Positions 6,743 through 54,000 of a stretch of 64,000 nt of DNA are shown one piece after another; position 1 is the stretch's first letter; each line of letters starts with the position of its first letter. The translations under genes and the position numbers were made by a program. The DNA comes from Amoebophrya sp. A120 (lineage: Eukaryota; Protista; Dinoflagellata). The notes under the pieces are model-generated. The model saw only the letters and a list, made by a program, of their open reading frames with translations, did not search any database and had not been told where the DNA came from. The stretch lies in the NCBI GenBank assembly GCA_905178155.1, contig CAJINV010000004.1, forward strand, positions 8,764,882-8,828,881, written 5' to 3'.

Positions 6743-9700
6743 ATGCCTCCAAAAGAGGGCGACCGGATCCTGCCCATGAAGGGGCAGGACCGGCTGCGGG
6801 TCCGGTTCGGGAACAGCGCCCCGCGGAAGGTGATCTTCCCGCCGACCGCCCCGAAAATGGCCTTGCTGCACGAATCCCCCGCGGAGTTGTCGCTGAAGCA
6901 CGTGCACGGGTTTTCGGGGACGAATAACGGCCTGCATTTTGTCGGGGAAAAGGAATTGGTCTACCCGTGCAGCGGGGTCGTGGTCCTGGACGAGGTGACC
7001 GGTTTGCCACTTTGCAGTCACACGCACGAAGACCAGAAGCAGAACGCCGGGAACAAGTTGGGCTTTGTGCAGAATTCCGGCCGAGACAACAGCAACGTGG
7101 ATCCGCGGGTAGTTTTAGCCGCTGGTACTTTCCCATCTTCTTCACAAGCCTCCCCTACTAAAGCCGCCAAACCGCACCCGTCGGAACAGCGGGTTTTCTT
7201 CGGGCACAGCACGGAAGTCACCTGCGTGGACTACAACCACACGAAGCGCGTCATCGCCTCCGGGCAGCGCGACCCGAAGGGGCCCGGGAAACCCTTTGTC
7301 TGCGTGTGGCGGGCGGCCGACATGATGCTGATCTCCGTGTTGGTGTATCACGAAGCGCAGATTACCTGCGTCGGGATCGCGCCCAAGGGCGACTTTCTCT
7401 TTACCATGGGCCGCGACGACGCGAACACGGTTGCCGTCTGGGCCGCGGGGCAGTTCTTGCCCGAGGGGAGCGAGCGGGCGAGGGGGTTCGACGCGCAACG
7501 AGAAGCCGTGGTGCATCGCGCGCCCGTCAAAATCGCGGCCAGCGGGAAAGTGCCATCGTAAGTACTTAATATTTTTCTTGGTTATAATGTAATATCAAGT
7601 CAAGTAACATAAGAAACTGGTTCTGTCCATGCAAGATTGCTTCCCAAAAATATTTATCAAAAATCTACTCAACATCCCTAGGTTCTGCTGCACGGTTTCT
7701 TTTCTTGCCGCCCCCTTCATGTTTGCCACCTTTGACACCGGCGGGTTCGGCCGGGGGATCCTGAAAGTCTGGCGGTTCCGCCCGCGGTTGCACACGCGGC
7801 ACGGGGACCAAGACCCGACATTGAACGGAAAGGACTGCGTCATCGCTGGTTCGGTGCGGGCGATTACCGCTGCGGCGTTCACCCTGGAGCAGAACCTCCT
7901 TCTTGCCTGCGGCGACAACGGCATTCTCTACGTCTACGAGGGAACGAGCATAAAACGCACCATTTCTATCGTGTCCAACTGCGCCTTGACCGCGGTGCTC
8001 GATCTCTGCATGCCGGAGCTCGGGTTTCTGGCCGCCTCTGCGGACGGGTGTTTGCACCTGATCGAGGCATATCCAGTGCAAATTATATGTCTGGGTCTGG
8101 AAACTTGTGATGCAAGTCCGTGAACAATAACAGTGCTCTGTAATGCGCCGCGAAGCATGACAATTTTTGTTCGTGCTTCTGTGCTGCGTATTTCGCATGA
8201 GAAACTGCGCTTTTGCATGACAGGCAAGCGGACGTCTTGGTGGCCGCGCAATACAGAGTGCAGAATCATGCCAGACTGGCATGACAAATCTCGCGATCTT
8301 TCAGAGCCAGACATACTTGCAATGCATAAGGCACGCGCGGTGACAGAGATGGACTCGGAGGACGTGGTAGAGACGCTTCCGGTAAACAGACTAGCCGGCC
8401 CGGACCATAACCCGAACTTGGTGAGGTTACTGTGTTCCACCTCGGTCCCCGTCGCCAGGTGCTTTTCCATCGCGAAAGCGAACCCCAAGCACCACCACCA
8501 CCACCATCACGGAGATCATTCAGGCGGTGGGAACAAGGACGGGAAAGTGTTGTCGGCCGGGGAACAAGCTGCAGCTGCTGCTGCCGGCAAATCCAAAAAA
8601 GGTCTGTCCACCGCCGCGTCACAGCGGTCCGCGACGGCCTCCCGGATCGCTAGCTACGTGTCGCAAATGTCCGGAGGCGGTTCGAAAACCGCCAGCGGGG
8701 AAGAAACCGGCTCGAAGTCGGGTGCTGAATCCGCGTTGAAGTCGAAATCTCGGGCCTCCAACGGGCAAAGTCGCGCGTCCGGATCGAAATCGTCCACCAA
8801 GAAAGACGGGGACGAGGAGGAAAACAAGTCGAAGAAGGGCAGTCAGAAGACCGTGGACAGCAGCCAGGCCGACAAGATCGAGTCCATGGTCGCGCAACTC
8901 CAGGGACAAATGATCGGGCACCGGGTGGCGATCGGGTGTCAGGACAGCACGGTTTTTGTGGTCGACCTGCTCCAGAAGAAGGTCCTGGAAGTGGTCCAAT
9001 CCGGCCACAAGTCCGCGGTCGCGGCGATGGCCCGACAGGGAAACTTGGTTGCGACCGGGAGCAGTGGCGGGGATTTGCGGTTTTGGAATCTGAAGGAACC
9101 GAGGGCGCCGCTGATCGGGCGGGTGATCCACTTTTCCGCGGTGGAGCGGGATGACGGAAATAAAATCAAGCCGAAAACGAAGGAAGAGGTACAGCCTTAC
9201 GCTACCTTCCAAGGCATGTACGCAGATAACAAGAAAAAATTTAACCCGCAGAGCAGAGTTGGCGGTTCTTTTGGGCAACAGCCGCAACAGCTGCAGCCAG
9301 ACCCGCGCGTGACGAGGGGAGACCCGTTGAGCCACAACTACTTTGTAGTGGACGTCGATGCAGCAAACGGGGCGGGGATGGCTGACGCGAGAAAGTTGTT
9401 CGCTTCGACGGTCGGAAAGCAGGTTAATTTGGTGTACCCGGAAATAAACAGGCCAGGCGATAATTTCGCCGGTCCGTCCTATTCCGACCAGGAGATTTTG
9501 AATTACAACAATTACGGGGGGCAGCGAGGAAGCAACAAAGCTGCACAACAAGGCAACGGCCAGAACCTTTCCCAGCTTCTCCAGTCGAACAGCAACCTGT
9601 CCGATCGGTTGAGCCGCGAAAAAAACCAGTTCACAGAAGAAGCGGACCCAACGCTCGCGAACAAGCGGCTAATGCAACCCGCCGGGATCGCGAGCTTGGT

Positions 9701-12600
9701 ATGCTCTGCAAAAGTATCGTACTCGTATGAATTGCAGTCATGCATGACAAATGTGACTGTCTACCTTATCCAGCATGACAAATTGCATTTTTCATCTTGG
9801 AAAAATTTGTAATGCAATCTATACTAGTACGATGCTTTTACTATGCATACTTGGCCTTCGCGGACAACTATCTCGCCATCGGGTTTGAGGACGGGTTTCT
9901 GCGGATTCTAGACTTCCCCGGGCTACAGCCGGTGGACATGCGACCCCTGGCGGAAGAGCGGATCTCCTGCTTGCAGTTCTCGCCCGATCAGAGGCTGCTC
10001 GTCGCCGGTTCGTTTGACCAGATGGTCTACGTGCTGGAAGTAGTGGACAATAATTTTATTCAGGATGTTGCTGACGCAGAGAATCTGTCCTTGTCAGTCG
10101 TCCCTACACCGTCGAGGAGTAGTTTTTCGAAAAGGAACAACAACAGAGCTGCAAACCAGACGAGAATCCGTGTGCTCGCCGCTCTCTCCGGGAACACGTC
10201 GTCTGTCTTGAAGGTGGGAATTTCACTGGACAATTCCATCCTCATGTCCAACGGCGCCGACGGCTCTCTCCTCTACTACGACTTGCGAACGTTTGAGCGC
10301 TACGGAAAGATGCGGGACTTTCGGGATGTGCAGTTTAACGTGGCGATGGCGCAATCCTGGGCGACGCAGGGGATCTGGGCCAGTCAGCACCACTGGAACT
10401 CGCTCTCGCTGAATTGCGTGGATAGCTGTATAGAGAATTATTTTCATTCGTAAAGATAAAGAATAACGTAGACGTACTTGATGGCGCTTGTCGTGTTGGT
10501 AAAACTTACGCATCATGAGAGACTGTGATTTTGTTTTTGCGTCCTTCTTCGCATGACAAATTGGAAAAAATCAATCTTCTATCAGTTTCCGATCTCTGCG
10601 TCACCGGTGACGACGACGACATGGTGAAACTTTTTCCCTACCCTGCCACCTTCGAAAACACGACCGCGAAAGATTTTTCGGGCCACGCGGGGCAGGTTCT
10701 GCAGGCCTTGATTTGGCAAGACGAGGATGACAGAGCGGCGATGAACAAAGGTGGCATAGTTTCAGCGGATGTAGTAGTTAACGGTATCAACGGAATAAAT
10801 GGCCCGAACTCCGCGCACGAAGATAAGGAGCAGATCCGGTCGAGGGGAAACCCGGACAAAATCGGCGCGGTCGACCGTACCCGGAAGCCCGGCCAGCCGA
10901 TCACCACGAGTACTATCGCCGGGAAGTCTTCGTCGTCGCAAAAAAATATCAAATGCAAAAATGTCTGGGTCTGGAAGATTGCTATGTTTGTCATGCACAT
11001 TTTGCATGAGTCGTGATGCCTGTGATGTATGCCCCAGCATCACAAAATTTTGCGGGCATCTTGATGCCTATCCCGCATGAGAAATCCTCTCTCCGCGGAG
11101 CAAAAACTGGACGCCTCTTGCTGCTCATGCAATACAGGTTTTTTTGGATTCCAAAAATAGCATCACAAGTTGCATTCTTCCAGACCCAGACATTTTTGCA
11201 ATACATAAAAAACAAGGCCAGGCAACTCGCCGCCGCGAAGCAGGAGCAACAGGTGCAGGGTGTGACTGGCGCGTCCATGAACGCGACCAAACAGGACCCG
11301 AGGATCCGGGTTCTTACTGCGGACAGCAACGGCGCGATCTTCGAGTGGGAAGTGTTCACCGCGCCCATGCTGCGGGACAAGCACGTCGTGCACCACATTC
11401 AGAACAACGACCGACAGAAGTACCCGTGGGTGGATAAAGCGTGGGTGAAAGCGGAGATTCTGCGGAGGAGAAAGGAGTTGGAATCCATGCAGAGCAACCG
11501 GTATCACATTGATGCAAAACAAGGATCGTGCTCGTAGCAAAAATTGCCGTGTAATGCATGATAAATCTAAACTTTGACTTTCTAGCTGATCTAGCATGAC
11601 AGTCTCCATTCTTTTTCTTCGGATATAAGTTTGTGAAATGCAATTTGTACTACTTTCTTACTTGCGCGATACATAGGGCTTTTTGCAATGCATAGCTGGC
11701 TAGTCACCGTCACCAGGGAAGAGTTGCGGAATATCGAAAGGAAAGATCCCCCCTCCCCATATCAAAACGGAATTTCTGATGCTGGATTTGTGTACACATA
11801 TCAGGTCTGTATTGCAGAGAGGCACTGCGGCCAGATCCCCAGGCTAGGTAGGGGCGTATGGGTCTTGTTGTTCAGCATGGCAAGCGGGTCACTGTTAGGG
11901 CCAACAGCATGGCAAATCGCTTCCATAGTGGGGCCGAAGCTTCTGCCCTTGTCTTCTTGCTAGACAGATGTGATTTGTGGCCTCAAATCCGCAACACAAA
12001 TTTTTGGAAACATGCCTTTTCGATATGGGGAGGGGGAATTTTTACTTTTGATACGGAAAAAGTGGAATGGGTTCGACACGAAGCGGTACCCCCTGTACGA
12101 GCCCCCGTGGGCGTATGGCGTTCTCAAACATTACATTCTCAACTGTTACATGAATTTGTCATGCAAAAATACCATCATTATCCACACGATAAAGCTGCTT
12201 TGCATGACAAATATGCGAAGGGCTAGACAGCGCCGAAATCTGTGCGGAATTTTTAATGCTACAGGTGCAACCTCCCCCCTTTGACTTTTGCCATTCTTGC
12301 ATTACAAATTCATGGAACGGTTGAGAGTGTAACGTTTGATAACGCCATAGAGCGCGGTGGCAGGATTTCCAACCCAACAACGAGCAGCGAAACATGATTC
12401 GACTACCACCACAGCCAGGGTCACCGTCGATGACTTTGACCCGCTTGGAGAAAAAGATCGCGAAACTCCCGTCGGAGCAGCCGCACGCCGGCCCGGCCCG
12501 ACCGCCGTGGGCGATATTGCAGGACCCGGCACCGAAGGAGCGCTTCGCGGACGCGGGGTGGAAAACGGCAAATCCCTGGGACTGGCATGGGGAAAAGTGA
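6743..12600 (+). CDS. Echinoderm microtubule-associated protein-like (EML; HELP motif + WD40 repeats), multi-exon
   Basis: HELP-like ELSLKHVHGFSG..NGLHFV..ELVYPCSGVVV; QRVFFGHSTEVTCV..VIASGQ; C-terminal VTGDDDDMVKLFPYPA..FSGHAGQV, typical of EML proteins. GT-AG introns at 7558-7681 and 10428-10585. TIR introns at 8070, 9700, 10947, 11502, 11760 and 12114. The last exons are less certain. Confidence 0.85.
8070..8328. mobile_element. Introner family A, subfamily 2
   Basis: TIR with gtctgggtctggaa core; perfect direct repeat aggca. Removal gives LIEA-RAVTE. The internal sequence is the reverse complement of 19460-19712. Confidence 0.92.
9700..9849. mobile_element. Introner family C (150 bp)
   Basis: ~40-bp imperfect TIR tatgctctgcaaaagtatcgtactcgtat...; perfect direct repeat cttgg. 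Removal restores WD40 segment IASL-AFADNYLAIGFEDG. Confidence 0.9.
10947..11207. mobile_element. Introner family A
   Basis: TIR as at 4700; direct repeat aaaaa. Removing 266 nt joins two different frames into SQKNKARQL. Confidence 0.92.
11502..11694. mobile_element. Degenerate introner
   Basis: tatc...cata ends, weak TIR, direct repeat accgg/gctgg. Removal gives QSNR-LVTVTREEL in frame. Confidence 0.65.
11760..12012. mobile_element. Degenerate introner, right boundary uncertain
   Basis: Starts tatcaaaacgg. Subterminal inverted repeat ggatttgtgtacacatatcaggtctgt / acagatgtgatttgtggcctcaaatcc. Flanking exons are in the same frame (DPPSP..FRYGEG). Confidence 0.5.
12114..12349. mobile_element. 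Introner family D
   Basis: ~53-bp TIR tatggcgttctcaaacattacattctcaac... with few mismatches; direct repeat gggcg/gagcg. Removal gives EPPWA-RWQDFQP open to the stop at 12600. Confidence 0.9.
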
Positions 12601-13378: not shown

Positions 13379-16300
13379 ATGGCAGGCGACGAAATCCTGG
13401 TCCGGTTGACCACCGGGGCCGGGCGCACCAGGCTCACGGTCCCGACTAGCACAACACTCCAGGAGCTGAAGCAAAGGATCGAAGGGGTATGTGAGTTTTT
13501 GAGTATGTAAGACCGACACAAAGATGACCGCTTGTTTTCTTTGTCATGCATCAACTGCTTCTGCTAGACAACTTCATTTCCACTCTCCTATGAAAAAAAT
13601 ACAAGGGCATATCAAGGAAAAAAATCAAAATCGAACAGCAAACCGGCGTCCCGTGGACCCAGCAGCAGCTCTGCTTCGAGGGGAACCGCCCGGTACCGAA
13701 CAACCACGGTTCGAAAATCCTGGAGCTCGGGATAAAACAGGGCACCATGCTTTTTCTCGCCAACAGCAAAAACGCGGAGATAAAGTCCACATTCACGAAC
13801 ACCCAGAATTTGTTGGCGAAACCCGCCGATTTTTACCAGCAATCCGGCGGGTCGCTGTCCGGCGGAACGGGGGCACCCGGCGGCGCGACCAGCAGTAAAG
13901 CACCGCTTTCCGCGCAGCCGACCCCCTCGGACGTGATGTCGAGCGCCAGCTCCGCGAGCCAAATGCCGCTGGCGGGGAACAGTGCGAGTAGTAGCAGCAA
14001 GAAACCGGCGGAAAGCACCGGAATTCTGGTAAACGGAAAACCGATGGAGATAGGTACAGATCGTACTTGCGTTTTGTTGCTCGTTGTAGTTTGTTTTGAA
14101 AATCATGCGGAAGTTGATGTGAATCTGTATTCTTACGGGACACAACTGCATGAGTATCTATCGTACGTTGTCCTGCGTAGAATGCAAATTTCATGTGAAA
14201 GAACTTGAACTTACTATGACTCTCAGCGAAGAAGAACGACCCAACTCACGTGTCCTTCGAAAAGTTTCTGCAGCAGAGGCGGTTCGAAACGGCGAGTCTG
14301 CCTGGGATGCAAACCTACAAGCCGGTGAAGATAGAACGAGGGAAGCAAAACAAGTTGCCGCCGCCAGTTACGTATCAAATGGAAAAATGTCTGGGTCTGG
14401 AAGATTCTGAGACTTGTCATGCATGTTTTGCATGGGCCGCAATGTCTGCGATGCACGCCCTAGCATCACAGATTTTTTGAGGGATATTCCGCGATGCCTA
14501 TTCCGCATGACAAATGCCCTCTCCGCGTACCAAAAATTGCATTCGCTTTGCTGCTCATGCAATACAGATTTTTTTGGAATCCAAATTCAGCATCACAAGT
14601 TGCATTCTTCCAGACCCAGACATTTTTACATTTGATATCACGCTAGGCCATCAGAAGTTCCGACACGTGGATTATTTGGAGTACAGTTCGTGCGTTTATT
14701 TCTGGAGAGTATTGTCAGACAAAATTCAAATTTAAACTACTACATCAAGCCGAATTTGTAGTTTTCAATTTCATGCATCTTGTCATGCGTTGATCTCATT
14801 CGAATAAAAGTAAAACAGGTATATGAACGCCAGCGCAATACAAAACTTCGTGGGGTACTGGCAGAGCAGAGACATGATGGAGCAGCGGGGAGGCTATCTG
14901 TACGGGTACTACAGGGAAGACAAACATGTGGAGAAAGGCGTCCGGGCGGTGATGGAAGGTATTCGTTATCGTTTGTCTTGCAAAATTCCCATGACACGCA
15001 TAATCTGGTAACCCGTATGCGACCTTGTGATGCATGGTCGGGAATAGATGTCCTTGAGTTTGTCATGCATAAATGATCTAATCTAATCAAAAGAAAAACC
15101 ACAACAGCAATATACGAGCCCGTGCAGCCGCAATCTGACTTTGTGCAGTTTTCGAAAATACCCGACGCCGGCAGTGACCTCGCAGACAAGATCGCGAATC
15201 GGCTCGGTACTAGGGCTTTCTACTTTTTGTGCCATGCATAAGATTAGATTGACTGCTCTTCTACTGGTCGGAGCACTTTTCATTCGCTAGCTGGTGCAAT
15301 CGCATTCTCACGCATGCCTGCCGCAACACAGATGTGGCTTGTCATGCACGCTACACGTACACACAAATCAGGTCTCGAAAAAATCGGCTGGATCTACACC
15401 GGTTTGCCACGGGACGAGTTGCTAAACGCCCAGGAGGTGCTGGAAATCGCTCACATGCAGCAAAGGTACTTACTACTTTATGAGGCAGGATAGGGATTTG
15501 TTTCATCCAAAATTTGTGATGCAAAGAGTGCTGTAACCAGCACCAGTTCTACTTCTTGATTGTTGTCATGCCAAAATCCCCTCTCAACAAAACCACCACT
15601 GTCAGGTATAAAAGCAAAAAGCACTATTCCGGCTACGAACTCTCCACCTTCGTTACCTGCACCGTCCGCCCCGACGTGGAGAACGGTGGGCAGCCGGACA
15701 CGAAGGTGTTCATGTGCAGCGACCAGTGCTCTGCCATGCTGCGCGACGGCTGTTTGGACGAGAACAATTTGGATCCGAAAAACATGAAAATCAAGCCCCC
15801 ACCAGAACCGGGCATCATCATGCCGGCGGTGTTGCAGTCCGGGAAGGACGCGGGGAACTTCGACCCGGACTGGTTCATCATCCGCGTGAACGACGGCCAG
15901 CCCACGGCGAGGAAGAAGAAATCCATCTTTTCCCAGTCTCTCTTCCCCTTCGCGAATCGACCCGGGAAGCCGCGTATCACACAGAAAAAAGCTGGCAGGG
16001 CGTATTTGTAATGCAAAGATAAATACACAAAAAAAGCTGCATTGCATAACCGAAACAGCATACTATGGGGCCACCCATGACAAATCTTTCTGTGTATTTA
16101 TTTTTGCATTACAAATAATATGCCCTGCCAGCTTTTTTCTCTGGGATACCGCGGCCCAGCCGGCAGGATTTCCGGAACTACATGCAGCAGGCGGCGCCCG
16201 GGGGCCCGAGTTATGACAATGAAAAATGCCCCCACCCCCGAACTTGAAAGCATTTGTATTGCAAACCTTTCCAAATGAAACATTCGCCCTCTTGCATGCA

Positions 16301-16664
16301 TCAGCATCACAGATTTCCGATCGTGAAGAGCAAAAATTTGTATCGCAAAAGATCCCAGCAAGAGCGGTGCTTGTCATGCAAGCGATGCGAAACACAACTA
16401 GAATTCGCATCAGAAAGATTCGTACTCCTTTCATGCATGACAAAAAGTTTTCATTTGGAAACTTCGCATCACAAATTTTTGCAACTTTGGGAGTGGGGGG
16501 GCACTTTTCACTGTAATACGAGTTGGGCCAAGTTCGCGGACTTTCACGCGCTGATCTGGCTCGCACAGGAGTTCGACATCGATACGGTGTTCACGATCTG
16601 CGACTCGGTGCGGGAAAGGAAGGACGTACTGCCGGGAATCATGGAAATGGTGGGCGCGCTGTAA
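13379..16664 (+). CDS. NPL4: Nuclear protein localization 4 homolog (Cdc48/p97-Ufd1 cofactor)
   Basis: Spliced protein has an N-terminal UBL-like domain and the NPL4 motifs VTLGHQKFRHVDYLEY, QRGGYLYGYY..GVRAVMEAIYEPVQ, LGLEKIGWIYT, STFVTC, SDQCSAMLRDG, FPFANR and ADFHALIWL. GT-AG introns: 13487-13638, 14054-14226, 14681-14818, 14959-15107, 15207-15371, 15466-15605. TIR introns at 14373, 15975 and 16212. Confidence 0.93.
14373..14637. mobile_element. Introner family A
   Basis: 31-bp TIR; direct repeat ttacg/tcacg. Removal restores conserved NPL4 PPVT-LGHQKFRHVD. Close paralog of 4700-4961. Confidence 0.94.
15975..16148. mobile_element. Introner family E (mostly fold-back)
   Basis: ~60-bp TIR tatcacacagaaaaaagctggcagggc...; perfect direct repeat ccgcg. 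Removal gives KPR-PSRQDFRNYM. Confidence 0.92.
16212..16518. mobile_element. Introner family F
   Basis: TIR tatgacaatgaaaaatgccccc / ggggggcacttttcactgtaata; perfect direct repeat cgagt. Removal gives GPS-WAKFADFH. Confidence 0.92.
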
Positions 16665-17612
16665 GGAAGTACTTACTTCTTGCGGGATGAAAGACTACGT
16701 GCAGTTACCACACACAACTACCTGGTGTCGTTGTTCTTCCTCTGGGCGGCCTGTTGGGGAACGGCCGTGGTTTGTTGTTGTCCCAGTGGTTTGCGTACCA
16801 CCCCAAAAGCGACGAAGTAGACTTTTTGAAAGCGACTTTTTCAGAATACGACGACTTTTGATACTTACTTATTACTCACGAGCGGTTATTTGAATGGCAA
16901 TGGGCAAATGCCGTTATTTTTGCCAGAAATCTCGAGTCCTGGAGATTTCGCACCCTGGAGATTTAGTACAACATAGTATTTTCCCAATCAAGAATCATGA
17001 CCTGAATGAAGGACGTTAAACCGAATCATGACCCCGCTGAATTGTTGTTTTAAAAACTGAATTTATCTGTTGTTGATACAACACAAGATTCGAATAAGCT
17101 AAAGCACAAGCAAAAAAAAAACGAGGACTCTTCGCTTCGAGCCTCTACGATAATTCGTCGTCTCACGACAGCAGCAGGCAGCAGTGTGCTGTTGACCCGA
17201 GCATGGTGCAAAGGAGCCCATCAAGAATCAAGCAAAAGATGTTCTACTAAACATTTAGAAAGCCACTGACTAGCTCATCTCAACGTGAAACTAATATTGC
17301 CTCTCCACCATCCTGTTTTCATATCCGCAACCTTCATTGCAGGCCGACAAACAACATTTTTTCAGCGCATCAACTTAAATAAGTCTTTAGGCTGTAAATA
17401 CCACTGTCGTGCAGATAGAGCTTTGTAATTCCGGATGAAGTACTAGTAGATCCTACGGTAGGCACAAGCCAGGTTTCGAATGGCAATGAGTCAAGATGAG
17501 GCTGATCTTGTCGTACTACAACTAGAGTGAGTTCGATTGTTCCCGACCGCCAGCCTGTGGTACTACTGGTGAGGACATAGTTCAGGAATTATATAGTTGA
17601 AATTCTTTAAAA

Positions 17613-20600
17613 ATGGACGAAGAATACGACGTAATCGTGTGCGGCACCGGTTTGAAAGAGTGCATCCTCTCCGGGTTGCTCTCCGTTTCGGGAAAGAAGG
17701 TGCTCCACGTGGACCGAAACAACTACTATGGCGGGGACTGCGCCTCGCTGAACATAACAAACTTGTGGGCTAAATTCAAAAATGGGGACAAACCACCACC
17801 AGAACTGGGTAAGTGATTAGAAGTACATGTTTCGCTTTTGAAGTTCTGCATTATGTAGCAACAGAAGTGGAAATTATTTTTTCTCTCGCATCTTATTTCT
17901 TCTCTATCTCTACTTGCAAGAAGAGAATCCAATCCATTCATCTTCTATCAGGTCCCAACCGCGACTGGAACGTGGACCTGGTCCCAAAATTCGTCATGGC
18001 AAATGGGCTCTTGGTGAAGATGCTTTTGCACACCGGCGTGACTCGGTATCTCGAGTGGAAATCGGTGGATGGCACCTACGTCTACCAGTACCAGGAAGCG
18101 GGGTTCTTCAGCAGCGAAAAGTTCATCCACAAAGTGCCGGCCAACGACAAGGAAGCGCTAAGTAGCGCTCTGATGTCCCTACTGGAAAAAAACCGCTTCA
18201 AGAACTTCTTCCAGTTCATCATGGGTATTGAAGATTTCTTTGGTTTTGCAAGTGCTGATGCAATAATTGTAGGGGCATGACAAAATGGCAATGCTCGTGC
18301 CGTGTGCTTTATTTTTTCGCATGATAAAAAATCATTTATTTTTTTTTTTTTCCCAAACAGCATGGGACGACGCAAATCCGAAAACATTTGACGGCGTCGA
18401 TCCGAACAGACACAGCATGCAGCAAGTCTACGACAAATTCGGTCTGCAGCCGTTGACAATCGACTTTTTGGGACATTGCGTAGCGCTCTACCCAGACGAC
18501 AACTACCTGCGCTGCGCCTGCGGGCCGACAATAAATAAGATGAAGCTGTATTGCAGCTGCTGTTTACCTGCTTCTATTTGCTTGGTCTGTTGCGAGGTTA
18601 TGCATGACAGGCTACCAGGTTGAATTTGAACCTCCACCAGTGTATTTCAAATTTTAGTACTCCACCGAACTGCCACTATCAGGTACATGGAATCAATCGC
18701 ACGGTACGGCAACTCTCCATTTATCTACCCAATATACGGCCTCGGTGGGCTTCCAGAAGGGTTCTCAAGGCTTTCCGCGATTCACGGTGGGACTTACATG
18801 CTGAATAAGCCAGTAGACGGGTTCGAATATGACGAAAATGGTATGAGTCTTCATCTTTTTGCAATACAGATTTTGGAATGCTCAGAGTACGACCACATCA
18901 TATCGTAATGCATTACAACTGTCGTTGTAGAACGTTCGTATTTGTCATGCGCAAGAACATGATCATGTTTGCGTGACGAAGGCGAGGCATATAATATGAC
19001 GCGAACAAAATGAAAATCCTCAGGCAAAGTGTGCGGCGTGCGATCAGGGTCCGAAGTAGCGAAGGCAAAGATGGTCATCTGCGACCCCAGTTACGCCCCA
19101 GAAGCAAAGAGGAGGCCTGTGGGGCAAGTCATCCGGGCGATCTGCATTTTAGGCGCGCCAATCCCTAACACAAGCGACGTGAACTCAGTACTGGATTATT
19201 TGTTGACGATTTTTAGCTGATTTCCATTTCGAGCATGACAAAACTTTTCCCTCTTCTACCTCCCGCATGAGAAAGATAAAAACTGCACAACTTAAAAATA
19301 TCAGGTCCAAATCATTTTGACCGCGAGCCAGATGAAAAGGAAAAACGACATTTACATCATGATGGTCTCGAATTCACATATGGTGGCCGCAAAGAACAAA
19401 TACATCGCGATCGTGTCAACCACGGTGGAAACGCAGAGGCCCGAGGAAGAAATCAAGCCTATCAAATGCAAAAAAGACTGGGTCTGGAAGATTGCGAGAT
19501 TTGTCATGCTTGTCTGGCATGACCAAAAAGTTTGTGATGCGTGTCCAAGAAGAGACCCTTTTGCCTGTCATGCAAAAACGCAGTTTGTCATGCGAAAAAC
19601 GCAGCACAAAGAAGCGCAGATATTTCTCATGCTTGGCTGCGCATTACAGAGCATTCAATATTCCCAACGCAGCATTACAAGTTTCCAGACCCAGACATTT
19701 TTGCATTTGATAAAGCCGGCCCTGAGACTACTCGGGCCGATCGAGCATATCATGTGCACGGTATGGAAGTTTTTGGAAATTCTAGGTTTGGATTGAAAAA
19801 AAAAAAAAATGATTATTTCTTTGTTGAGTTTTGCATGAAATCAAGATCAAACTGGTTTGTGGTTGAACTCGGATTTTTGTCTGCTGCACATGCCAAGTGA
19901 TGACACCAAAAGTTCTCGTCCACACAACAATTCACAAAAAAACCCGACCAAAAGGTCTCCACACTCTACGCACCAACCGACAAGGGGGAAGACAACGTTT
20001 TCGTAACCTCCAGCTACGATGCCACCAGCCACTTCGAGTCCGCATCTATTGACGTGATGCAGATGTTATGCATTGCGAATATGTCTGGGTCTGGAAAGGT
20101 TGAACCTGTAGTGTCATTTTGCGTCTCGCATATCTGAAAATAGATCTGTATTGCATGAGCAGCAAGAAAAAATGCGCCACGACATTTTCGTCATGCAAAG
20201 TCACAGTCTGTAATGCGCACAAGCACAACGCATGAGAAAGCGTTTCAAAATAAAGTTGTTACCCTTGTTCACTACTATTAGAGGCGGATTCAATCACATC
20301 CATGCAGCATTACAGGTTTCCAGAGGACCAAGACATCTTTGCATTTGATAGCTGTGGTATGGAGAGAAAAAAGTTTATCATAGTCACTAATTTGCAGGGT
20401 TTGCATTACAAACTTTCTTAGCATCATAAATTTTCCTTGTATTGCAGAAACACTAGGGAAATCCCTAATAAAGTTTGGCTGTGATGCATTTTTACGCATG
20501 ACAAACAGTTTTGTATTGCAAAAATGCGCATCAGTGATCGTGACGAACTTTTTTTGTTTGATATGTGGAAGAAGATGTTCGGCGAGGAGCTGGTTTTGAC

Positions 20601-20916
20601 GGTTCACATATCCTGAGTAAAAACGTACCCACACCAGAGTTGTAATGCAAATCTGCATGCTGAAAATGTTTCTCATGCGGAGCCTCATGAGAAGCATTCT
20701 CTAGTCGTGTCTTGCAATTTGTCATGCTCCAATCAGCATGGTATGCTAGATCTGTGATGCTGCTGAGCTAGCTCAAACAGCACTACACTACGAATCCAAA
20801 TTTGTCATGCAAAACAGCCAAAACTTGTGGATTTGTCTAGCCGATTTCCCATCTTGACTATGGTGTGGGTACGTTTTTACTCAGGATATCACAAAGACGC
20901 GGAAGCGGACATGTGA
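17613..20916 (+). CDS. GDI: Rab GDP dissociation inhibitor
   Basis: [85 protein letters not shown] and [14 protein letters not shown] introns: 17809-17951, 18225-18360, 18548-18682, 18841-19023, 19188-19304, 19761-19954. Four TIR introns (19460, 20067, 20358, 20609). Reconstructed C-terminus [26 protein letters not shown]. Confidence 0.97.
19460..19712. mobile_element. Introner family A, subfamily 2 (opposite orientation to the 8070 copy)
   Basis: 31-bp TIR; perfect direct repeat aagcc. Removal restores [19 protein letters not shown]. Confidence 0.95.
20067..20350. mobile_element. Introner family A, subfamily 3
   Basis: TIR tatgcattgcgaatatgtctgggtctggaaa / tttccagaggaccaagacatctttgcatttgata; direct repeat gatgt/gctgt. 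Confidence 0.88.
20358..20563. mobile_element. Introner family G
   Basis: Imperfect TIR tatggagagaaaaaagtttatcatagtcact / agtgatcgtgacgaactttttttgtttgata; perfect direct repeat tgtgg. Only 7 nt separate it from the previous element. Confidence 0.85.
20609..20888. mobile_element. Introner family B (young copy)
   Basis: Perfect 28-bp TIR tatcctgagtaaaaacgtacccacacca; perfect direct repeat tcaca. Removal gives VH-KDAEADM*. Confidence 0.95.
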
Positions 20917-22033: not shown

Positions 22034-23611
22034 ATGGGCAAAAAGGGTCGGTGGGGTACCAAGAAGGACGCCACTACGTCAGAAGCGGACCCAACGGGTG
22101 CCAGCCACGATGCGGGCCTCGACTTATTAGCGAAGCAAGGATCTTCAGCGGCTGCGTCCACGTCCGCCACCAGCCCCGACGGTAACAAGAACGCAGCACT
22201 CGCCCACCTTGAGTCGGGTATTTTACGTGGCCAGAAGGATGCGAGCTCCACGTTCCGGCAGAAGCGGTCGGAATTCGACCAGTTTAACACGACGGTGGGG
22301 ACGGTTTCAAACTCCGCGCAATCCACCTTGGAGGAAAACCTGAAGCGGTTTCTAGCCCTTGTTTCCGACCAGGACGAACATTGTTTCTGCCTCCCGGAGG
22401 GGTTCTGCGCGCGGACCGATCTTTCCACGTTCGAGCAACTGTTTCAGGAGTTCGAATTTTTGCCGACCTGGAGCGCGAACGGGTTTCGGCTGCGGCGGGA
22501 CGTGATCGATGTTGGTATGTTCAACTACCGAGTTGATGGTTCATCTTCTGACACCACCAGCGGTGTAGTTGTTGCAGCTAGTCGTGGAAATAACGGCCCC
22601 CCAACGAAAAAGCGGTTCCGACCCTACAACGTCGCTGAGAGCGAGCAGGTGCCGGATGGTGCTTTTGTTTCTTCAGAACCACGAAGACCAGGGGGAGGAT
22701 CAGGAACCCCAAATTGTATCCGGAACGCCGTCTGGGAAAACTGCCCGACGTATCGGAAGCTGATTCAGTTTCTCGTAAAGAAGTTCGAGATTCAGGGGCC
22801 GGTGCGCTCGGTGATAAACTTTTACCAGGGAAACAACAACCGCCTGGGCTTTCACAAGGACAGCTACTACGGCAACGTGAATTTTACGGTCGGCGTCTCT
22901 CTCGGGGCGACGAGGAATCTGGAGTTCATAACGAATGAAGAGTACTTTCACACACTTTGAGAGAACTACGGAATACATTTTTGCTACAGAGTTTCGAGAT
23001 TTTTTGTACCGCTTGTTTCATCCTAGGTTGTCGTATTGGACAAATTGATGGTCGTTCAAGAGGAGGCATGATGTGGGCTTCTTCTTCTATCCCAATTGCC
23101 ATTTTTGCAAATTACGCTGCTGCTCTCGCAGTCACAGGCAGCACTAGTTATACAAATCAACATGATTGACAGGTACCAGCGACAGCAGGCGCAGGGCGGC
23201 GGGGGCAACATGCAGGGCGGCCTGTTTTCCTTCCCGCAGGGGAACGGGGACATCTTCGCATTTTCCGAGTACGTAAACAACCATTACCGCCACGGCGTGC
23301 CCAACGACGCTCAGAAGCAGTTCGGCGGACGAATCTCCGTGGTGGTTTGGGGCCACCGGGAAACCAAATTCGCAAAGGTGGGTGCCGAGTCGTCGCGAAA
23401 ACGAGTGCAGCCTCGTGACGGAATGTCGACCAGGTCGAGCAGTAATCGGGACGAAGTCGTCGCTCCTTCGAAGAGTTATTACCCCTACGAGGGCGACTTC
23501 GTAGTGGATTTCGCCGGGGAAGAAGGAGAGAGGATAGTGTACGATGATGCGGCACTTCTGGTAGATGGTACTAGTAATCGTGATCTTGTTTCCAAAGGAA
23601 GAATAAGATGA
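22034..23611 (+). CDS. AlkB-like 2OG-Fe(II) dioxygenase
   Basis: VINFYQG..LGFHKD (HxD), VGVSLGATRNLEF, NGDIFAF..HYRHGVP (distal His) and GRISVVVW (2OG-binding Arg). One GT-AG intron, 22942-23172. Confidence 0.85.
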
Positions 23612-23869
23612 TGGCGCGGACGAGGGAACATAATTTGTACTAGCATGACACTGTCACTTTTTTGTGGGCATGATTTCTACCATTGTTCGAAGAGAATAAA
23701 AAAGTTCGAACAAGAACTGCTGCCTGAAAACGGGCACCCACAACTATTGTGCGAACTTACGCAGCCCTGCATTAGTATGAAGCAAAGGCTGCTTGTTCTT
23801 CTTTCCCGCACAATTCTTGCAATGTGAGCGTTTGATTCCTGTTGACAGCGGAGTGCCGTGGTTTAAATG

Positions 23870-26390
23870 TGAGACTCACAATTGAGTGAGCAGTCGCATT
23901 TGGAGAAGGTGTTGTGAGCCTACGCACGAGTGCGGTTTTTGTGGGCACTTGGTGTGAGCGGAATGCTTGATGTGGGTGATATGAGTGGTACTCCAGGTCC
24001 AGTTCTGTTTGTTACGGACGGCGTTTCTGTCATTTTGTCTATAGCAAGCGCAACGCGTCGTTTGCGTCTTATTGAGAATGGTCGCGTTTTTCGGCTGCCA
24101 CGCCCGCCCGGCTTCGACGAGGAGCGAAGACGAATCCTCCAGGGCTTCATTTTCCGAGCCTTCCGAAGAGCTCCGAGAAGAAGCGGAGCATCCCAGGAAC
24201 ACAAACTGGACGCGCAGTGGGCCGACTCGAAAGTAAACGATGCCATAACCGGCATCGTGCGAGAACTGGCGGCGCTTGGTGTTTGGACTGGTGCTTTACA
24301 TCGTCGCCGCGGCCGATCTCCTCCCCCGGATTGGACTCTGTACTTGGCCGCCTTCGCCCTGGCCTTGCCCCCAACCGGGCCAAGCAATCTTGGGGCGGCT
24401 TCCGCGTGCGCCACGGGCACAGCGCGCCCACGCCCTCGGGCCCCATCGCCCGTTAAGCAGGAGGGGCCCCCGTGCCGCTGCCTCGTCGTGCTGGGCCCCC
24501 CGCGCCGGCCGGGCGCAGCGCTGCTCCCGCCTGAAGGAGCTAGGGCCGCGCGCCTGGTCTCCCCGGCGCTAAAGGCCATGCGCTCGGGCCCGCAGAGCGT
24601 GCGGGCATCATCGTCGCGCGGGCGGGCTACGTGCGGCCTCCCCGTGCCGTTGTGGCTCTCCGATGCGGGCTTCCAAGTTCTTCCCGTGCGCTTTCTGCTG
24701 TGCGTGGTGCAAATCAATTGCTACTGCCCCTCCAAGTCCGAAAAAAGCCGTTAGAAGCTCAGGGGCGTTCAGCTACAATGGTGCAGGCGTGCAGTGCCCT
24801 GCTCCAGCGTGAGAGGCGGGGTCACAGGTTTCCGGATCTGATATGAGGGTGAGGGCTGGAAGCGAGTTGTGACGCTCGTTGCAACGCATGGTGCCGAGCG
24901 AGAGCTTCTGTGCGAGTGAGCTGAAGATCAAATGTGAAGCTCACAGCTGAGTGAGCAGTCCCATTTGAGAAGGTGTATTTGTGAGGCAACATACGAGTGC
25001 GGTTTTTTTGGGCACTTGGTGTGGGCGGAATGCTTGATGTGAGTGTTACGAGTGGTACTAGAATTACAGTTCCTTCTTGGTATGGACGATTTCCGCGACG
25101 TTTCTGATGTTGTGTCTATAGCAAGCGCAACGCGCCGATTGCGCCTTTTTGAGAATGGCCGCTCTTCGTCGGCCACACCCGCCCGGCTCCGACGAGGAGC
25201 GAAGAGGAATCCTCCAGGACTTCACCTTCCGAGCCCCCCGAAGAGCCCCCGAGAAGAAGCGGAGCAGGTGGCTTCCGAGCTCGGGCGGCGGGAAAGGGCT
25301 AAATCTACTGCTGCAGCGGGCGCCGTCCGACGTGCGTTCAGGTCATACCACAATGAAAAGCGCCCCGCCCCCAGTGGTCCCAATTCGTATTATTATGGCG
25401 AAGCCTGCGCGTGTTTTCCTTGCATGAAAAGGCTCGGGCCGCTGCTACTTCATATGCGGGGTTTTGAGAAAACCGAAGCAGCTTTCACTAAACAAGCTCC
25501 ATGTCATTTGCGGGACCTTTTTGCAGCACCGATTTTGCTGGCGATTCTGCATCGCAAATTTACGTTCGTTGCAATTCCGAGGTAGGGGGGTTTTTCAATG
25601 TGATAGGCCTGGACCTTCGGAAACGACGAAAACTTTCGCCGGGCGGAATAGTTTAGATGTCGCCGACCCCCGCGACAGGGTGATCCGTGGCAGAGAGTTA
25701 TTCATCCGGACGCAGGTGGTGCGGAGGGGGGCGCGGTGGCACACGGCCCGGCATCCGGACAAAGAGGCGCGCGCGAAGGTATTCGAATCGACGCGGCTCC
25801 TAGTAGTATCTGCTGACGGCCCCAAGCAGCCGCGGGGCCTCGCTCGTGTACACCATCAAGAGCGCAGCGCGCCCGCGCCTCGCGGCGCAGGGGGCGGCCT
25901 CCGTGCGGCTGCCTCTCCGTTCTGGGCCGTTCTGGGCCCCGCGTGCGGCCGGGCGCAGCACTGCCCCGCCCCGCCTGAAGGCGCTACGCCCGCGCGCCAG
26001 GTCCCGCTCCGTGCGGGAGGCCACGCGCCCGGGCCCGCAGCGCGTGCGAGAACCATTCGCGCGCGGGCGGGCTGCGTGCGGCCGTGCCGTTGTGGGTCTC
26101 CGATGCGGGCGTTCGCGTTCGTTCCGTGCGTTTGCAGCTATCTGTCGTACAAATTAATTACTACTGTCCCTCCGAGTCCGAAGAAGGCTCGCAAAAGCTC
26201 GTCATGGGCGTTCAGCTACAATGGCGCGGGCGTGCAGTGCTCTGTTCCAGTTTGAGAGGCGTTGCAGGTTCCGGAGCCGAGGTGAGAGTGAGGGCTGGAA
26301 GCGAGTTGTGATGCTGGTTGAAATGGATGGCGCCAAGCGGGAGCTGCTGCGCGTGCAATGAAGGGCGGATTTAGTGTGCGAGTGAGCTGC
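23870..26390. repeat. Two diverged tandem copies of a ~1.05-kb unit; the second has a different central segment
   Basis: 23875-24190 matches 24940-25265, and ~24400-24920 matches ~25850-26390 (e.g. gggcgttcagctacaatgg..gcgtgcagtgc in both). Confidence 0.8.
25346..25605. mobile_element. Degenerate family-F-like introner inside repeat DNA
   Basis: Ends taccacaatgaaaagcgcccc / ggggggtttttcaatgtgata resemble 16212-16518; direct repeat ggtca/ggcct. Confidence 0.6.
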
Positions 26391-26499: not shown

Positions 26500-27090
26500 C
26501 GCGCAGGGCGGAGGCCGTCGCCCGCCGGGGACTTAGCGTCGCCCGCCAGGCAGAAAAAGTGGCCGGCCCCGGCGCGGGGCTTATGGGGCGGTTTTCTGGG
26601 TTTCGAAACATTGCCCCGCACCCGAGAAAGCCGGCCGCGGTGTCAGGCGGTGGGGCGGCCCCCCGGGCGTCGGCAGATTGCCCCCGCCGGCTTCTGATTT
26701 TGGGGGCGCTTTTCTGCGCCTCGGAAAACTGCCCTCCCGCCGGGGGAAGCGTCGCCCGCCGGCCCGAAAAAGTGGCCGGCGCCGGCTTCTGATTTTGGAG
26801 GCGCCTTTCTGCGCCTCGGAAAACTGCCCTCCCGCCGGGGGAAGCGTCGCCCGCCGGCCCGAAAAAGTGGCCGGCGCCGGCTTCTGATATCGGGGGCGCT
26901 TTTCTGCGCCTCGGAAAACTGTCCTCCCGCCGGGGGAAGCGTCTCCTGCCGGTCCGAAAAAGTGGCCGGCGCTGGCTTCTGGTTTTGGGGGCGCTTTTCT
27001 GCGCCTCGGAAAACTGCCCTCCCGCCGGGGGAAGCGTCGGCCGCTGGCCCAGAAAAGTGGGTGGCCGGCGCCGGCTTTCGGGTGGCAGCT
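26500..27090. repeat. GC-rich 95-bp tandem repeat (~5-6 copies)
   Basis: cttctg start recurs at 26691, 26786, 26881 and 26976. Confidence 0.92.
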
Positions 27091-33300: not shown

Positions 33301-33329
33301 GAACGCTCTGGTGCGAAAACTGAACGTTT

Positions 33330-51071: not shown

Positions 51072-54000
51072 ATGGAGCAGCCGGGTGCGGGGCACAACGA
51101 ACCAGGTGTCGCTTGCGACAGCAGTGCTCAGCCGGCAGGAGCGAACACGAATTATTCGGTCCAAGACCAGCTGGATCTGATTGCCTTCCCGCAGTTGTTA
51201 CAAGCCCAGCCGCTACTCCCATTAGTACAAGATGTGCACGCGCCGCCAGCGAGTAACCAGAGCATTCCATTCGTGATGAATTCACTGACCACGACGACGC
51301 CCCCGCGCCCCGGCTTGACGCCGGAATCGTGGTTAGACTCGCCACTGCAAGAACACGGACCAGTACTGTCGCCGAGCCTAATTCCCATCGACGCTTCAAC
51401 ACCGTCGACTGGCGGAGGCTCGAAAAAAGACGCCGACGAGCGGGGCTTTTCTCCATTCGAAACGCAGCCCGGCATTCCCTCGCAGGAGAAAGAGCTGGAA
51501 ATCGGGACGAGCAGCGAAGACATGACAACGCACTGTACAACGCCGATGGTGGATGGGCCGTCAAGCAGTGCGCAGCTGGCAGTCGGGGGCTCCGGGAAAC
51601 TGGTTTCCGCAGAGCAGGTATTCGTCGCCGAACAGGTTGATTTGGTGAACCACGACAATCTGGAGGGTTGCAACACCTGGTGTGACAGAACGCCCCCGGC
51701 GAGGAAACGGACCTTCACTGTACGAGTTGAGTTACTGGTGCTTTAGCATGATAGATGATCCAAGAAGTGTAGAACGTAGAAGGAAATGCAGACGATGTTT
51801 AGTAAAGCTAGATATGTCGAACTCGAAATCATAGAACGAAAGCAGTGCTTGGTCAACATGGCAACCATTCCTGCTCACGTGTGCGCGGTAAAGGAGGTCG
51901 TTCCCCGCCCTCCTTGCGCTTTTATTTTCGCTGAATCACGGCACTGCAGGTCCACTCCGGCCCGCGGAAAATAAGCATGCCACTCGTGACCGGAGATCTA
52001 ATAGAGGATGTCGGTGGGGCTGAGGAAATGGTGCAGGAGAAAATGCTCGAGAGCTTGTCGGCGCCCGAACCGGCTTGTAGCGAAGATCGAAGTGTTGCAC
52101 TGGCACCGGAAATTGCGAAAATGCTGGATGAGCAACAAGTACAAACGAGTTTTGATCTTGTGTCTTAGTTATATCATGCCACACCACTGCAGTACCGGAA
52201 ATGGGATCCGAGAGAGTAGTTTTGAAAGACGTAGTTGTACCGGATAAAATATGATTTTCAACTACTCATTCAAAAACTGTAAATACAGCACACCGCTACA
52301 CACTTCACTACGGAGGACTTGTTTAGGGAGATGACCCGCCGGAGCTTGGATGGACGAGTGATTTCGGCAGCCGTAAACTTCTTTGAGAAGTTGACGCGAG
52401 ACTACAACGATAAGCTTTGGGCGGATAAGGTGGCCGCCCACATGCTCATCGCCGGTACAACATTGTTCTATCTTTGATCTTCACTCCAATGGAAAAAAAC
52501 CCTTTCGTGTCAGATGCAAGGAAGTAGACCAAGAAGACGCATATTACTAACTTTGAACTTGTAATGCAAAAAACGAAAATGAAACAGATTTCATTCCAAG
52601 TGCAGAAGCCGAAGGGAATATTAAAGTAACGGTGAAAATGTTTTACAACATGCTCAATTGGATCGAGTCCCACCCGGCTGCAGGGATCGATAAAATTATC
52701 ACTGTGCTCAAGTCGCGCCGCAACTACAAAAACGCCGCAGCTGTGGCGGAGAAAGCGTGGACATCAATGGATCCGACACGGCAAGCGCAAATAGCGGCCA
52801 GGGTTGACACTGCAAAGGCGCTTCAGGTAAATAAATTCTACATTTTTCTGTTGTCGTCTGGTTTTGGAACCATTCAATTCCGTATCAATGATCTGCTTTT
52901 TTCTATGTGTGTGCGTATTACAATTTTGTTTTGCGCGAGAGCTTGCAATTCCACCCTTTCCGAGCCTACTTACACACGATAAAACTGACGTTCCCAGATT
53001 CTGTCGGCGATGGACGGCGACGTGGGCGAGATTTCCGCTGCCGTACGCCGGCTCGACTCGGGGCTCAATGGACTGCACGAGCACCTGGCCGACGTACGCG
53101 ACGAGATTAACAAAAAAGTCGAGGTGGAAGCGCAAGGGCTGCACGAGCATGTGCAAGCCGTCGGCCACGACTTACACCACGAGATCCAAGAACAAGGGGA
53201 TAGTACCCAGCGGGGACTCCAGGCCGTGCAGGATTCGGTGCAGCAGATCGGCGGAGACGTCCAGACTACGCACCAGCTCCTGAACCAAGTTGGCGATAGA
53301 TTGGAGGCGGTGCAGGGGAGTGTTCTTTCCGCGGTGGAGCGGGAATCTTCGGCTCTCCGGAACCAAATCTCGGATGTTGACGACCGCGCGGAAAACAGGC
53401 ACTTGCAGGGTCTGAGTGCGCTGAATGAGACGATCGCATCGGGTCGTGCGTCGGTTGAATCCTCGATCGAAAGCAGCGCAAAGAAGACCAACAAGAAGCT
53501 GGAGCAAGTGACGGAGCAGTTGAGTTTGGTGCTCAGCCACATCAACAGTGACACGCAGAACAGTACTACTGCGACTGCCCCAGCATCGGCTGCTTGCGGC
53601 TCCGAACACGCTTCCTCCGCGAGAGGGACACCAAACAGTTCCGGGTACGGCGGTACAGCACGTACAGGGACACCAAACAGCACGCCCCATACGGCAGCGC
53701 GGCGCGAGCGGTACAAGGGGATGAAGAACAAGGATGCAGTGACTGTAGGTGGTGGCAAGAAAAGCGGGGAGCAACAGTGCGATCACCATCACCGACGAGG
53801 AGGCGGTCATCAGGCGGGAAAGGGCCCACTACGTAACGCAAACCGTGGCGGTAGCGGCACTGGGGATGGTAGTCGCCCCTATGGCCAACAACGAAAGGGG
53901 AATTCCGGTAAGGGCGGTGGTGGACAGGGATTGCTGCCACGAGACTCTAGCGGAAAGACTGGGAAGAGCCCTGAGAAAAGTAGTAGTGCCGGTGCTACGC

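What the first reader, a model, noticed from the sequence alone, without database searches (positions are those of the whole stretch)
13487..19954. TGT(C/A/G)ATGC / GCAT(G/T/C)ACA motif marks both introners and ordinary GT-AG introns
Seen: introner interiors are studded with tgtcatgc, tgtaatgc, tgtgatgc and their reverse complements. The same words occur in canonical introns of NPL4 and GDI (e.g. ~13542, 14781, 15027, 15061, 15340, 15514, 15564, 18275, 18602, 18943, 19233). By eye they are rare in exons and satellites. Inference: either many GT-AG introns are eroded introners, or this is a strand-symmetric intron-identity or transposase-binding motif shared across families.
Basis: partly seen in the sequence, partly recalled or inferred. 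Interest (0 to 1): 0.72.

Follow-up and report, generated by a model that had tools for sequence, protein, structure and literature searches.

The report
Transposon motif kept in ordinary introns
In the marine parasite Amoebophrya A120, a short DNA word that fills its transposon-derived introns also sits, intact and on either strand, in most ordinary introns of two neighbouring housekeeping genes but not in their exons, which likely marks the binding site of a host DNA-binding protein that the transposons also use.

Summary
Observation confirmed locally. The window is Amoebophrya sp. A120 (GDI identical to CAD7947268.1 over 429 aa). TGT(C/A/G)ATGC on either strand occurs in 9 of 12 transcript-confirmed GT-AG introns of NPL4/GDI and 19 of 21 introners. 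It occurs 0 times in their exons, UTRs or in satellites, and once in 17.3 kb of other non-coding DNA. It is not genome-wide on this evidence: only 2 of 11 predicted GT-AG introns elsewhere carry it.

'Eroded introners' is not supported. The GT-AG introns have no terminal repeats, target duplications, hairpins or similarity to introners, yet the motif is intact. One motif-bearing intron position appears shared with strain AT5.

It is not a required intron signal either: two confirmed introns lack it and are spliced.

Best reading (0.45): a double-stranded DNA site for a host or transposase-derived protein, arrayed in helical phase and end-polarised in introners, single and unphased in host introns. 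The scan already noted the motif inside introners on other pieces of this genome; its presence in ordinary introns was in none of the notes listed. I found neither in print. Sample is small (two genes).

The parts
13379..16664 (+). NPL4 gene, CDS 535 aa, 6 GT-AG introns and 3 introners
   Evidence: spliced translation; exon 100% to A120 protein with NPL4 Pfam domains; joints
17613..20916 (+). Rab GDI gene, 6 GT-AG introns and 4 introner elements
   Evidence: 100% to CAD7947268.1 over 429 aa
13487..13638 (+). GT-AG intron, TGTCATGC at 13542
14054..14226 (+). GT-AG intron without the motif
14681..14818 (+). GT-AG intron, TGTCATGC at 14781
14959..15107 (+). GT-AG intron, TGTGATGC 15026 and TGTCATGC 15061
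15207..15371 (+). GT-AG intron, TGTCATGC at 15340
15466..15605 (+). GT-AG intron, TGTGATGC 15515 and TGTCATGC 15564
17809..17951 (+). GT-AG intron, no strict motif; one weak matrix hit (10.3) on the minus strand
18225..18360 (+). GT-AG intron, GCATGACA at 18275 plus a variant copy
18548..18682 (+). GT-AG intron, GCATGACA at 18602; acceptor position likely shared with strain AT5
18841..19023 (+). GT-AG intron, GCATTACA 18910 and TGTCATGC 18943
19188..19304 (+). GT-AG intron, GCATGACA at 19233 plus a variant copy 32 bp on
19761..19954 (+). GT-AG intron without the motif
14373..14637 (.). introner, TAT...ATA ends, 5-bp duplication, 4 strict motifs; skipped with 5 extra bases
15975..16148 (.). introner, 2 strict motifs; skipped with 5 extra bases
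16212..16518 (.). introner, 4 strict motifs; removal inferred from contig record coordinates and reading frame
19460..19712 (.). introner, 6 strict motifs, several 31-33 bp apart; skipped with 5 extra bases
20067..20563 (.). two adjacent introners (20067-20350, 20358-20563), 5 strict motifs; skipped as one 500-nt unit
   Evidence: loose end
20609..20888 (.). introner, 4 strict motifs
10428..10585 (+). predicted GT-AG intron of the upstream gene with GCATGACA at 10551
   Evidence: frame check and count; not RNA-checked
52455..52587 (+). predicted GT-AG intron with TGTAATGC at 52560
   Evidence: not RNA-checked

Best explanation
The motif (about YTTGT[C/A/G]ATGC) is likely the binding site, on double-stranded DNA, of a host or transposase-derived protein that reads both intron classes of Amoebophrya A120. 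Shown: introners carry several copies in step with the helical repeat, mostly pointing inward, the outermost typically about 36 or 46 bp from each end. Shown: host GT-AG introns of NPL4 and GDI carry one to three intact, unphased copies, and their exons and UTRs carry none. Inferred: in introners the phased array would seat a multimer that brings the two ends together for transposition. Inferred: in host introns single sites would be kept by selection because they recruit the same protein to the bodies of certain genes, for a chromatin or expression role. It is not a signal that splicing needs. The protein is not identified.
For: Both strands used, with the same upstream T in both classes. Introner copies: same-direction spacings peak at period 10.5 bp (R 0.50, n 70 non-independent pairs; R 0.53 in 16 elements after dropping close family copies), 29+/12- in 5' halves and 12+/33- in 3' halves (p 8e-5). 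Host copies are intact: exact TGTCATGC is 10 of 14 strict hits against 32 of 58 in introners, mean matrix score 14.6 against 15.2 (p 0.35), while everything else of an introner is absent. Nine exact copies fall in nine different introns (p 0.014). Summed DNA-contig depth over bins with GT-AG introns and no introner stays at 50-67, against thousands to 2e5 over introner bins. The AT5 gene model lacks 6 residues ending at the codon split by intron 18548-18682, which a near-identical transcript-type protein has: likely an intron at the same acceptor. Farhat 2021 (PMC7789003, sections 12, 16) report that 98.6% of introns at positions shared by A25 and A120 are canonical, about 19% of all introns against about 30% GT-AG, and infer that introner spread followed speciation.
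Against: No binding protein identified and no binding data. Only two genes and 12 confirmed introns, in the region where the motif was first spotted; 2 of 11 predicted introns elsewhere (p 0.024 against all control DNA, p 0.10 against AT-rich tiles). A general chromatin factor might be expected in intergenic DNA too, where the motif is at background. Host copies show no helical phase (n 7 pairs, p 0.82) and no plus-then-minus pair, so they may not share the introner geometry or protein. The age argument rests on one gene-model gap; no orthologous genomic locus could be obtained.
Confidence: 0.45

Rival explanations
1. Motif-bearing GT-AG introns are old introners that gained GT-AG ends and lost their terminal repeats; the motif is a leftover transposase site.
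For: Same motif and flank in both classes. Farhat 2021 found IR/DR organisation in 15% of A120 canonical introns. NPL4/GDI are introner-dense: 7 elements in 8.3 kb against 5 in the last 42.6 kb. My library is 21 elements out of about 1,954 published families.
Against: 0 of 12 (and 0 of 11 predicted) have end signatures, against 16 and 18 of 21 introners; end inverted-repeat scores 8-15 against 12-59, with 18 of 21 introners at 20 or more; best alignments never beat a null that keeps the motif (lowest p 0.07); junction repeats are only the 1-5 nt expected from AG|GT. Fold z-scores -2.1 to +1.5 against -12.5 to +1.0 in 11 of 21 introners tested. End composition is opposite: T-rich 5'/A-rich 3' against A-rich 5'/T-rich 3'. 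Neutral decay would not erase 30-bp repeats and spare a 9-bp word. One position appears shared with AT5. A wave older than the strain split is not excluded, but would still need selection on the motif.
Confidence: 0.15
2. The motif acts in the pre-mRNA as an intron-marking element read by a protein or guide RNA, standing in for the U1 snRNA that was not detected, and lets one machinery treat both intron classes.
For: Confined to introns, not UTRs or intergenic DNA. About one exact copy per intron. No strict copy in the first 45 nt or last 20 nt of 23 GT-AG introns. U1 not detected in A25 or A120 (PMC7789003). The two orientations share a CAUG core, and overlapping dyads occur twice in introners.
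Against: Either strand is used with the same flank, which suits duplex DNA; two confirmed introns have no copy and are spliced; 9 of 11 predicted introns lack it. Host introns do not fold into hairpins and have no plus-then-minus pairs that could pair. 10.5-bp phasing is a DNA property.
Confidence: 0.15
3. The motif is the introner transposase's own subterminal site; host copies arose independently and act only as tethers that draw insertions into motif-rich genes, with no host function.
For: Introner geometry resembles hAT subterminal repeats (PMC10368747 passages). The motif-rich genes are also introner-rich. Unchecked scan notes report hAT-like transposases in giant elements of this genome.
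Against: Gives no reason for 12 copies where 0.3 are expected, nor for absence from UTRs. No enrichment of the matrix within about 35 nt of 21 insertion sites (p 0.39). Farhat 2021 found no transposase in A120.
Confidence: 0.12
4. A neutral, strand-biased mutation or DNA-modification process enriches CATG-containing words in transcribed non-coding DNA of some regions.
For: CATG is 13, 7 and 15 per kb in confirmed, predicted and introner introns against 2.8 in far non-coding DNA. Orientation runs by gene (NPL4 8+/1-, GDI 1+/8-).
Against: The enrichment is for one 9-mer with a specific excluded variant (TGTTATGC), not for CATG words generally; transcribed UTRs have none; phasing and end distances in introners need selection.
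Confidence: 0.1

Closest known systems
Introner elements of Amoebophrya sp. A120 (Farhat et al. 2021, PMC7789003; Gozashti et al. 2025, PMC12130899)
   Same: The 21 elements have TAT-7nt-AAA inverted ends, short direct repeats, many copies and removal without GT-AG; same strain.
   Different: The passages I read describe no internal motif and none shared with canonical introns. The GT-AG introns here are not members.
hAT subterminal repeats bound by BED domains (Hermes; PMC10368747, passages)
   Same: Short repeats in both orientations inside the element ends, needed beyond the terminal repeat, read by a multimer.
   Different: Hermes sites are 4 bp and unevenly placed, with an 8-bp target; here 9-11 bp, helically phased, 5-bp duplication, shared by unrelated families and present in host introns. 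No binding shown.
Domesticated hAT-type BED factors DREF/ZBED1 (PMC7471704, passages)
   Same: Precedent for a transposase-derived host protein reading a short site at housekeeping genes; its site TGTCG(C/T)GA(T/C)A begins TGTC.
   Different: Promoter-located 10-bp palindrome with central TCG(C/T)GA; the resemblance is loose and no such protein was sought in A120.
Intron-mediated enhancement signals in plants (Rose et al. 2011, PMC3355757, abstract)
   Same: Intron-borne sequence that works in either orientation, argued to act as DNA.
   Different: Different sequence, promoter-proximal; here copies occur in introns 1 to 6; no link to transposons; expression effect untested.
PATCs of C. elegans (PMC4947018, PMC7725773; search listing and start of abstracts only)
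   Same: Non-coding DNA signal that protects genes from silencing; intron location and 10-bp period are recalled.
   Different: A/T clusters over kilobases, not a defined 9-mer; host copies here are unphased.

Membership tests
A120 introner elements (the 21 TAT...ATA elements) | Terminal inverted repeats starting TAT, 7 nt, AAA | tested here: met
   signature at 16 of 21 5' ends and 18 of 21 3' ends; arms
A120 introner elements (the 21 TAT...ATA elements) | Short direct repeat at the boundaries | tested here: met
   5-bp duplication with at most 1 mismatch in 18 of 21
A120 introner elements (the 21 TAT...ATA elements) | Removed from transcripts without GT-AG | tested here: met
   3 joints listed, each element plus 5 nt; 1 loose end; others in NPL4/GDI inferred. 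14 elements outside these genes not checked
A120 introner elements (the 12 GT-AG introns) | Terminal inverted repeats | tested here: not met
   0 of 12
A120 introner elements (the 12 GT-AG introns) | Target duplication | tested here: not met
   only AG|GT-type overlaps of 1-5 nt
A120 introner elements (the 12 GT-AG introns) | Repeated, similar to other introns | tested here: not met
   no excess similarity to 21 elements; depth at background at 90% likeness; full family library not available
hAT subterminal repeats | Several short repeats inside both element ends | tested here: met
   introners only: outermost copy centred 35-55 bp from the end in 16 of 21 (5') and 14 of 21 (3')
hAT subterminal repeats | 8-bp target duplication (Hermes) | tested here: not met
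   5 bp; that some hAT groups make 5-bp duplications is recalled, not checked
hAT subterminal repeats | Bound by the transposase BED domain | not testable with these tools
   no transposase seen in the parts of the window read; none sought by search
Intron-mediated enhancement signal | Orientation independent | tested here: met
   8+/4-; occurrence only, not function
Intron-mediated enhancement signal | Promoter-proximal introns | tested here: not met
   absent from NPL4 intron 2 and (strict) GDI intron 1, present in later introns
Intron-mediated enhancement signal | Raises mRNA level | not testable with these tools
   contig depth cannot rank genes
Strand-specific RNA splicing element (RBFOX-like, recalled) | Sense-strand bias and need for splicing | tested here: not met
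   both strands; 2 of 12 confirmed introns have no copy
Apicomplexan TGCATGCA (ApiAP2 site, recalled; listing only) | Palindromic GCATGC core enriched | tested here: not met
   GCATGC 0.5-0.8 per kb in confirmed introns and introners against 0.3-0.4 in controls
PATC | 10-bp periodic A/T clusters in host introns | tested here: inconclusive
   motif spacing unphased in host introns, n 7; A/T-cluster periodicity itself not tested

The most novel reading that the evidence does not exclude
Amoebophrya marks introns of core genes at the DNA level with a site for one protein that licenses or couples transcription and splicing. Thousands of unrelated introners carry helically phased arrays of that site, mimicking host introns so that they are tolerated, spliced without GT-AG and mobilised by a shared factor.
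Probability: 0.2. Interest if true: 0.82.

Novelty: new variant of a known kind. Interest (0 to 1): 0.52.

Why it matters
More than 60% of A120 introns lack GT-AG, U1 snRNA was not detected and no transposase was found (PMC7789003), so both splicing and spread of these introns are unexplained. A short site shared by unrelated introner families and by apparently older single-copy host introns points to a host-side factor, and gives a defined bait (DNA against RNA, wild type against the depleted TGTTATGC variant) for finding it. It would also change how the introner-internal motif is read: not purely a transposase site.

Tried and rejected
No whole genome held, so no genome-wide count. Raw RNA runs X9 and X10 gave 95 and 106 laid reads, nearly all partial matches to introner ends; uninformative. 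No listed holder is on record as RNA; X3/X5 are treated as transcripts because they skip introns and X3 carries a spliced-leader-like 5' end. GDI scan of metagenome contigs: 80 of 230 loci kept; 75 gave one tblastn segment and 5 gave two, none intron-rich, so no orthologous intron positions. Introner end patterns: 0 hits in viral contigs and 0 in prokaryote genomes. Indel screen of 127 proteins against A120 GDI: only the AT5 model has an indel of 4 or more residues ending at an A120 GT-AG intron site; NPL4 orthologues show none by eye. Motif near insertion sites: not enriched. Five leftover hits tested for possible introns: 21891 and 23643 have no candidate; 39547, 51743 (matrix hit) and 58549 have ambiguous candidates and were left out of all intron counts. 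Orientation by gene (p 0.003-0.01) was noticed after the fact and is not used as support. The 'gcatgaca' hit in PMC6482013 is a RACE adapter. Likeness to a paired-domain site was recalled only and dropped. Papers seen: PMC7789003 passages, sections 5, 12, 16, a supplement word search and part 1 of 5 (figures S19-S25 not visible and could show internal logos); PMC12130899, PMC6482013, PMC10368747, PMC7471704 passages; PMC3355757 abstract; others as listings. Searches for prior description; subscription papers such as Roy et al. 2023 are not in the library.
Full report
Organism and genes. The spliced GDI gene is 100% identical over 429 aa to CAD7947268.1 of Amoebophrya sp. A120, and an NPL4 exon is 100% identical to the A120 NPL4 protein CAD7947267.1. 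No whole genome was held, so all counts come from the 64-kb window. Contigs of runs X3 and X5 (one sample; RNA by guess) skip 12 GT-AG introns and 3 non-GT-AG segments among the 15 of 16 joints shown. X3 carries a 5' loose end like the dinoflagellate spliced leader (label recalled). I delimited 21 introners by inverted repeats and by eye; a stricter automatic search recovered 14 of them and no new one. Eighteen of 21 have a 5-bp target duplication with at most one mismatch. They match the published A120 introner description (PMC7789003).

Observation. All 11 coordinates are right within one base and lie in confirmed GT-AG introns. The strict motif occurs 12 times in 1,825 nt of these introns (9 of 12; shuffles 0.31) and 58 times in 5,179 nt of introners (19 of 21; shuffles 1.5). 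It does not occur in 2,968 nt CDS, 1,473 nt UTR, 862 nt adjacent intergenic DNA or 11,098 nt satellite. In 17,312 nt of non-coding control it occurs once, and in 1 of 43 AT-rich tiles. A matrix trained only on introner sites (81 distinct 14-mers) finds 18 hits in 10 of 12 host introns at score 10, against 1 in CDS and 0 in UTRs.

Limit. In 11 further GT-AG introns that I predicted from frame continuity, only 2 carry it (9/12 against 2/11, p 0.012). One search shows contig ends matching one boundary of two of these; the rest have no RNA support. Three more hits lie in gaps that may be introns and were not counted. The motif is thus dense in these two conserved genes and sparse elsewhere in the window.

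Are the GT-AG introns eroded introners? None has the end signature, a target duplication or an end-to-end inverted repeat, and none aligns to any of the 21 introners better than shuffles that keep the motif in place (lowest p 0.07). They do not fold (z -2.1 to +1.5). Their ends are T-rich then A-rich, the reverse of introner ends. Summed DNA-contig depth over bins holding only these introns is 50-67, near the background of about 46, against thousands to 2e5 over introner bins (not a copy number, but a clear contrast). Yet the motif is no more decayed than in introners. For age there is one indirect datum. The AT5 GDI model lacks six residues ending at L219, the codon split by intron 18548-18682, while a transcript-type protein otherwise identical to it in the alignment has them. 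Resuming there needs an AG that a leucine codon cannot supply, so AT5 likely has an acceptor at or within one base of this site; an assembly gap is the alternative. AT5 and A25 GDI are each about 90% identical to A120. Farhat et al. infer that introner spread followed speciation and that shared-position introns are 98.6% canonical. Erosion of current families is therefore unlikely. An older wave cannot be excluded and would still need selection on the motif. My comparison covers 21 elements out of about 1,954 published families.

Is it an intron-identity signal? Not a required one: introns 14054-14226 and 19761-19954 have no matrix hit at 8 or more and are spliced. Both strands are used. Some features suggest a per-intron role: nine exact copies in nine different introns (p 0.014; not significant for the three-variant motif, p 0.24) and no copy in the first 45 nt.

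Geometry. In introners, same-direction copies are spaced at multiples of 10.5 bp with a peak at 31-33, copies point inward (p 8e-5), and the outermost often sits about 36 or 46 bp from the end (pairs are not independent). I saw the fixed distances; scan notes on other pieces of this genome report the same phasing, and one search tested it afterwards. In host introns there is no detectable phase (7 pairs) and no plus-then-minus pair. Orientation runs by gene, NPL4 8+/1- and GDI 1+/8-, which I cannot explain and noticed after the fact.

Mechanism. Strand symmetry with a conserved flank and helical phasing point to duplex DNA read by a protein (inference). Intact copies in single-copy, probably older introns point to selection by the host (inference). 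I therefore favour one DNA-binding specificity used twice: arrays in introners that would help assemble the ends, and single sites in host introns that would recruit the protein to gene bodies (0.45). Against it: no protein, two genes, background level in intergenic DNA, and no phase in host copies. Rivals: erosion 0.15, RNA-level mark 0.15, transposase-only tether 0.12, neutral bias 0.10.

Novelty. The introners are published. An internal motif was not in the passages, sections or supplement text I could read, nor in searches; supplementary figures were not visible. At least six scan notes listed already describe the motif inside introners of this genome; none of those listed mentions GT-AG introns, and a further look-up returned nothing. 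The new element is the host-intron occurrence and the evidence against erosion. Interest 0.52: a testable handle on an open question, held down by the small, ascertained sample.

Noticed in passing
window 20067-20916: The published A120 GDI model (CAD7947268.1) reads into the introner at 20067 and has a wrong C-terminus; transcript contigs join 20066 to about 20567, giving the conserved WKKMFGEEL end.
   Followed up: yes
window 20067-20566: Two introners inserted about 2 bp apart in the original target, each with its own 5-bp duplication, are skipped as one 500-nt unit in the contigs.
   Followed up: partly
window 13487-19954: Motif orientation in GT-AG introns runs by gene: forward in NPL4, reverse in GDI, converging on the gap between them, although both genes are on the + strand.
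   Followed up: partly
all 23 GT-AG introns examined: No polypyrimidine tract: 44-45% A in the 25 nt before the acceptor and 42-43% T after the donor; donors mostly GTAY.
   Followed up: partly
window 13071: Transcript contig begins with a 9-nt loose end like the truncated dinoflagellate spliced leader.
   Followed up: no
window 8070-8328 and 19460-19712: Same introner family in opposite orientations in two + strand genes.
   Followed up: partly
P0121, P0131: A25 GDI and NPL4 models are three gene numbers apart on contigs of the same length, so the pair is likely syntenic.
   Followed up: no
window 11502-11694, 36958-37219, 37373-37539: Three introner-like elements lack a clean 5-bp duplication at the ends I assigned.
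   Followed up: partly
window 88-913, 26685-34531, 48210-50366: Satellite arrays with units of 16, about 94, 80 and 48-61 bp; none carries the motif.
   Followed up: no
window about 23850-26350: By eye, a diverged duplication of roughly 1 kb just before the satellite block.
   Followed up: no
window about 3060-6226, 6744-12357, 22036-23610: By eye and recalled motifs only: a thrombospondin-repeat/vWA-like gene, an EML-like WD40 gene with six introners, and a 2OG-Fe(II)-oxygenase-like gene.
   Followed up: no
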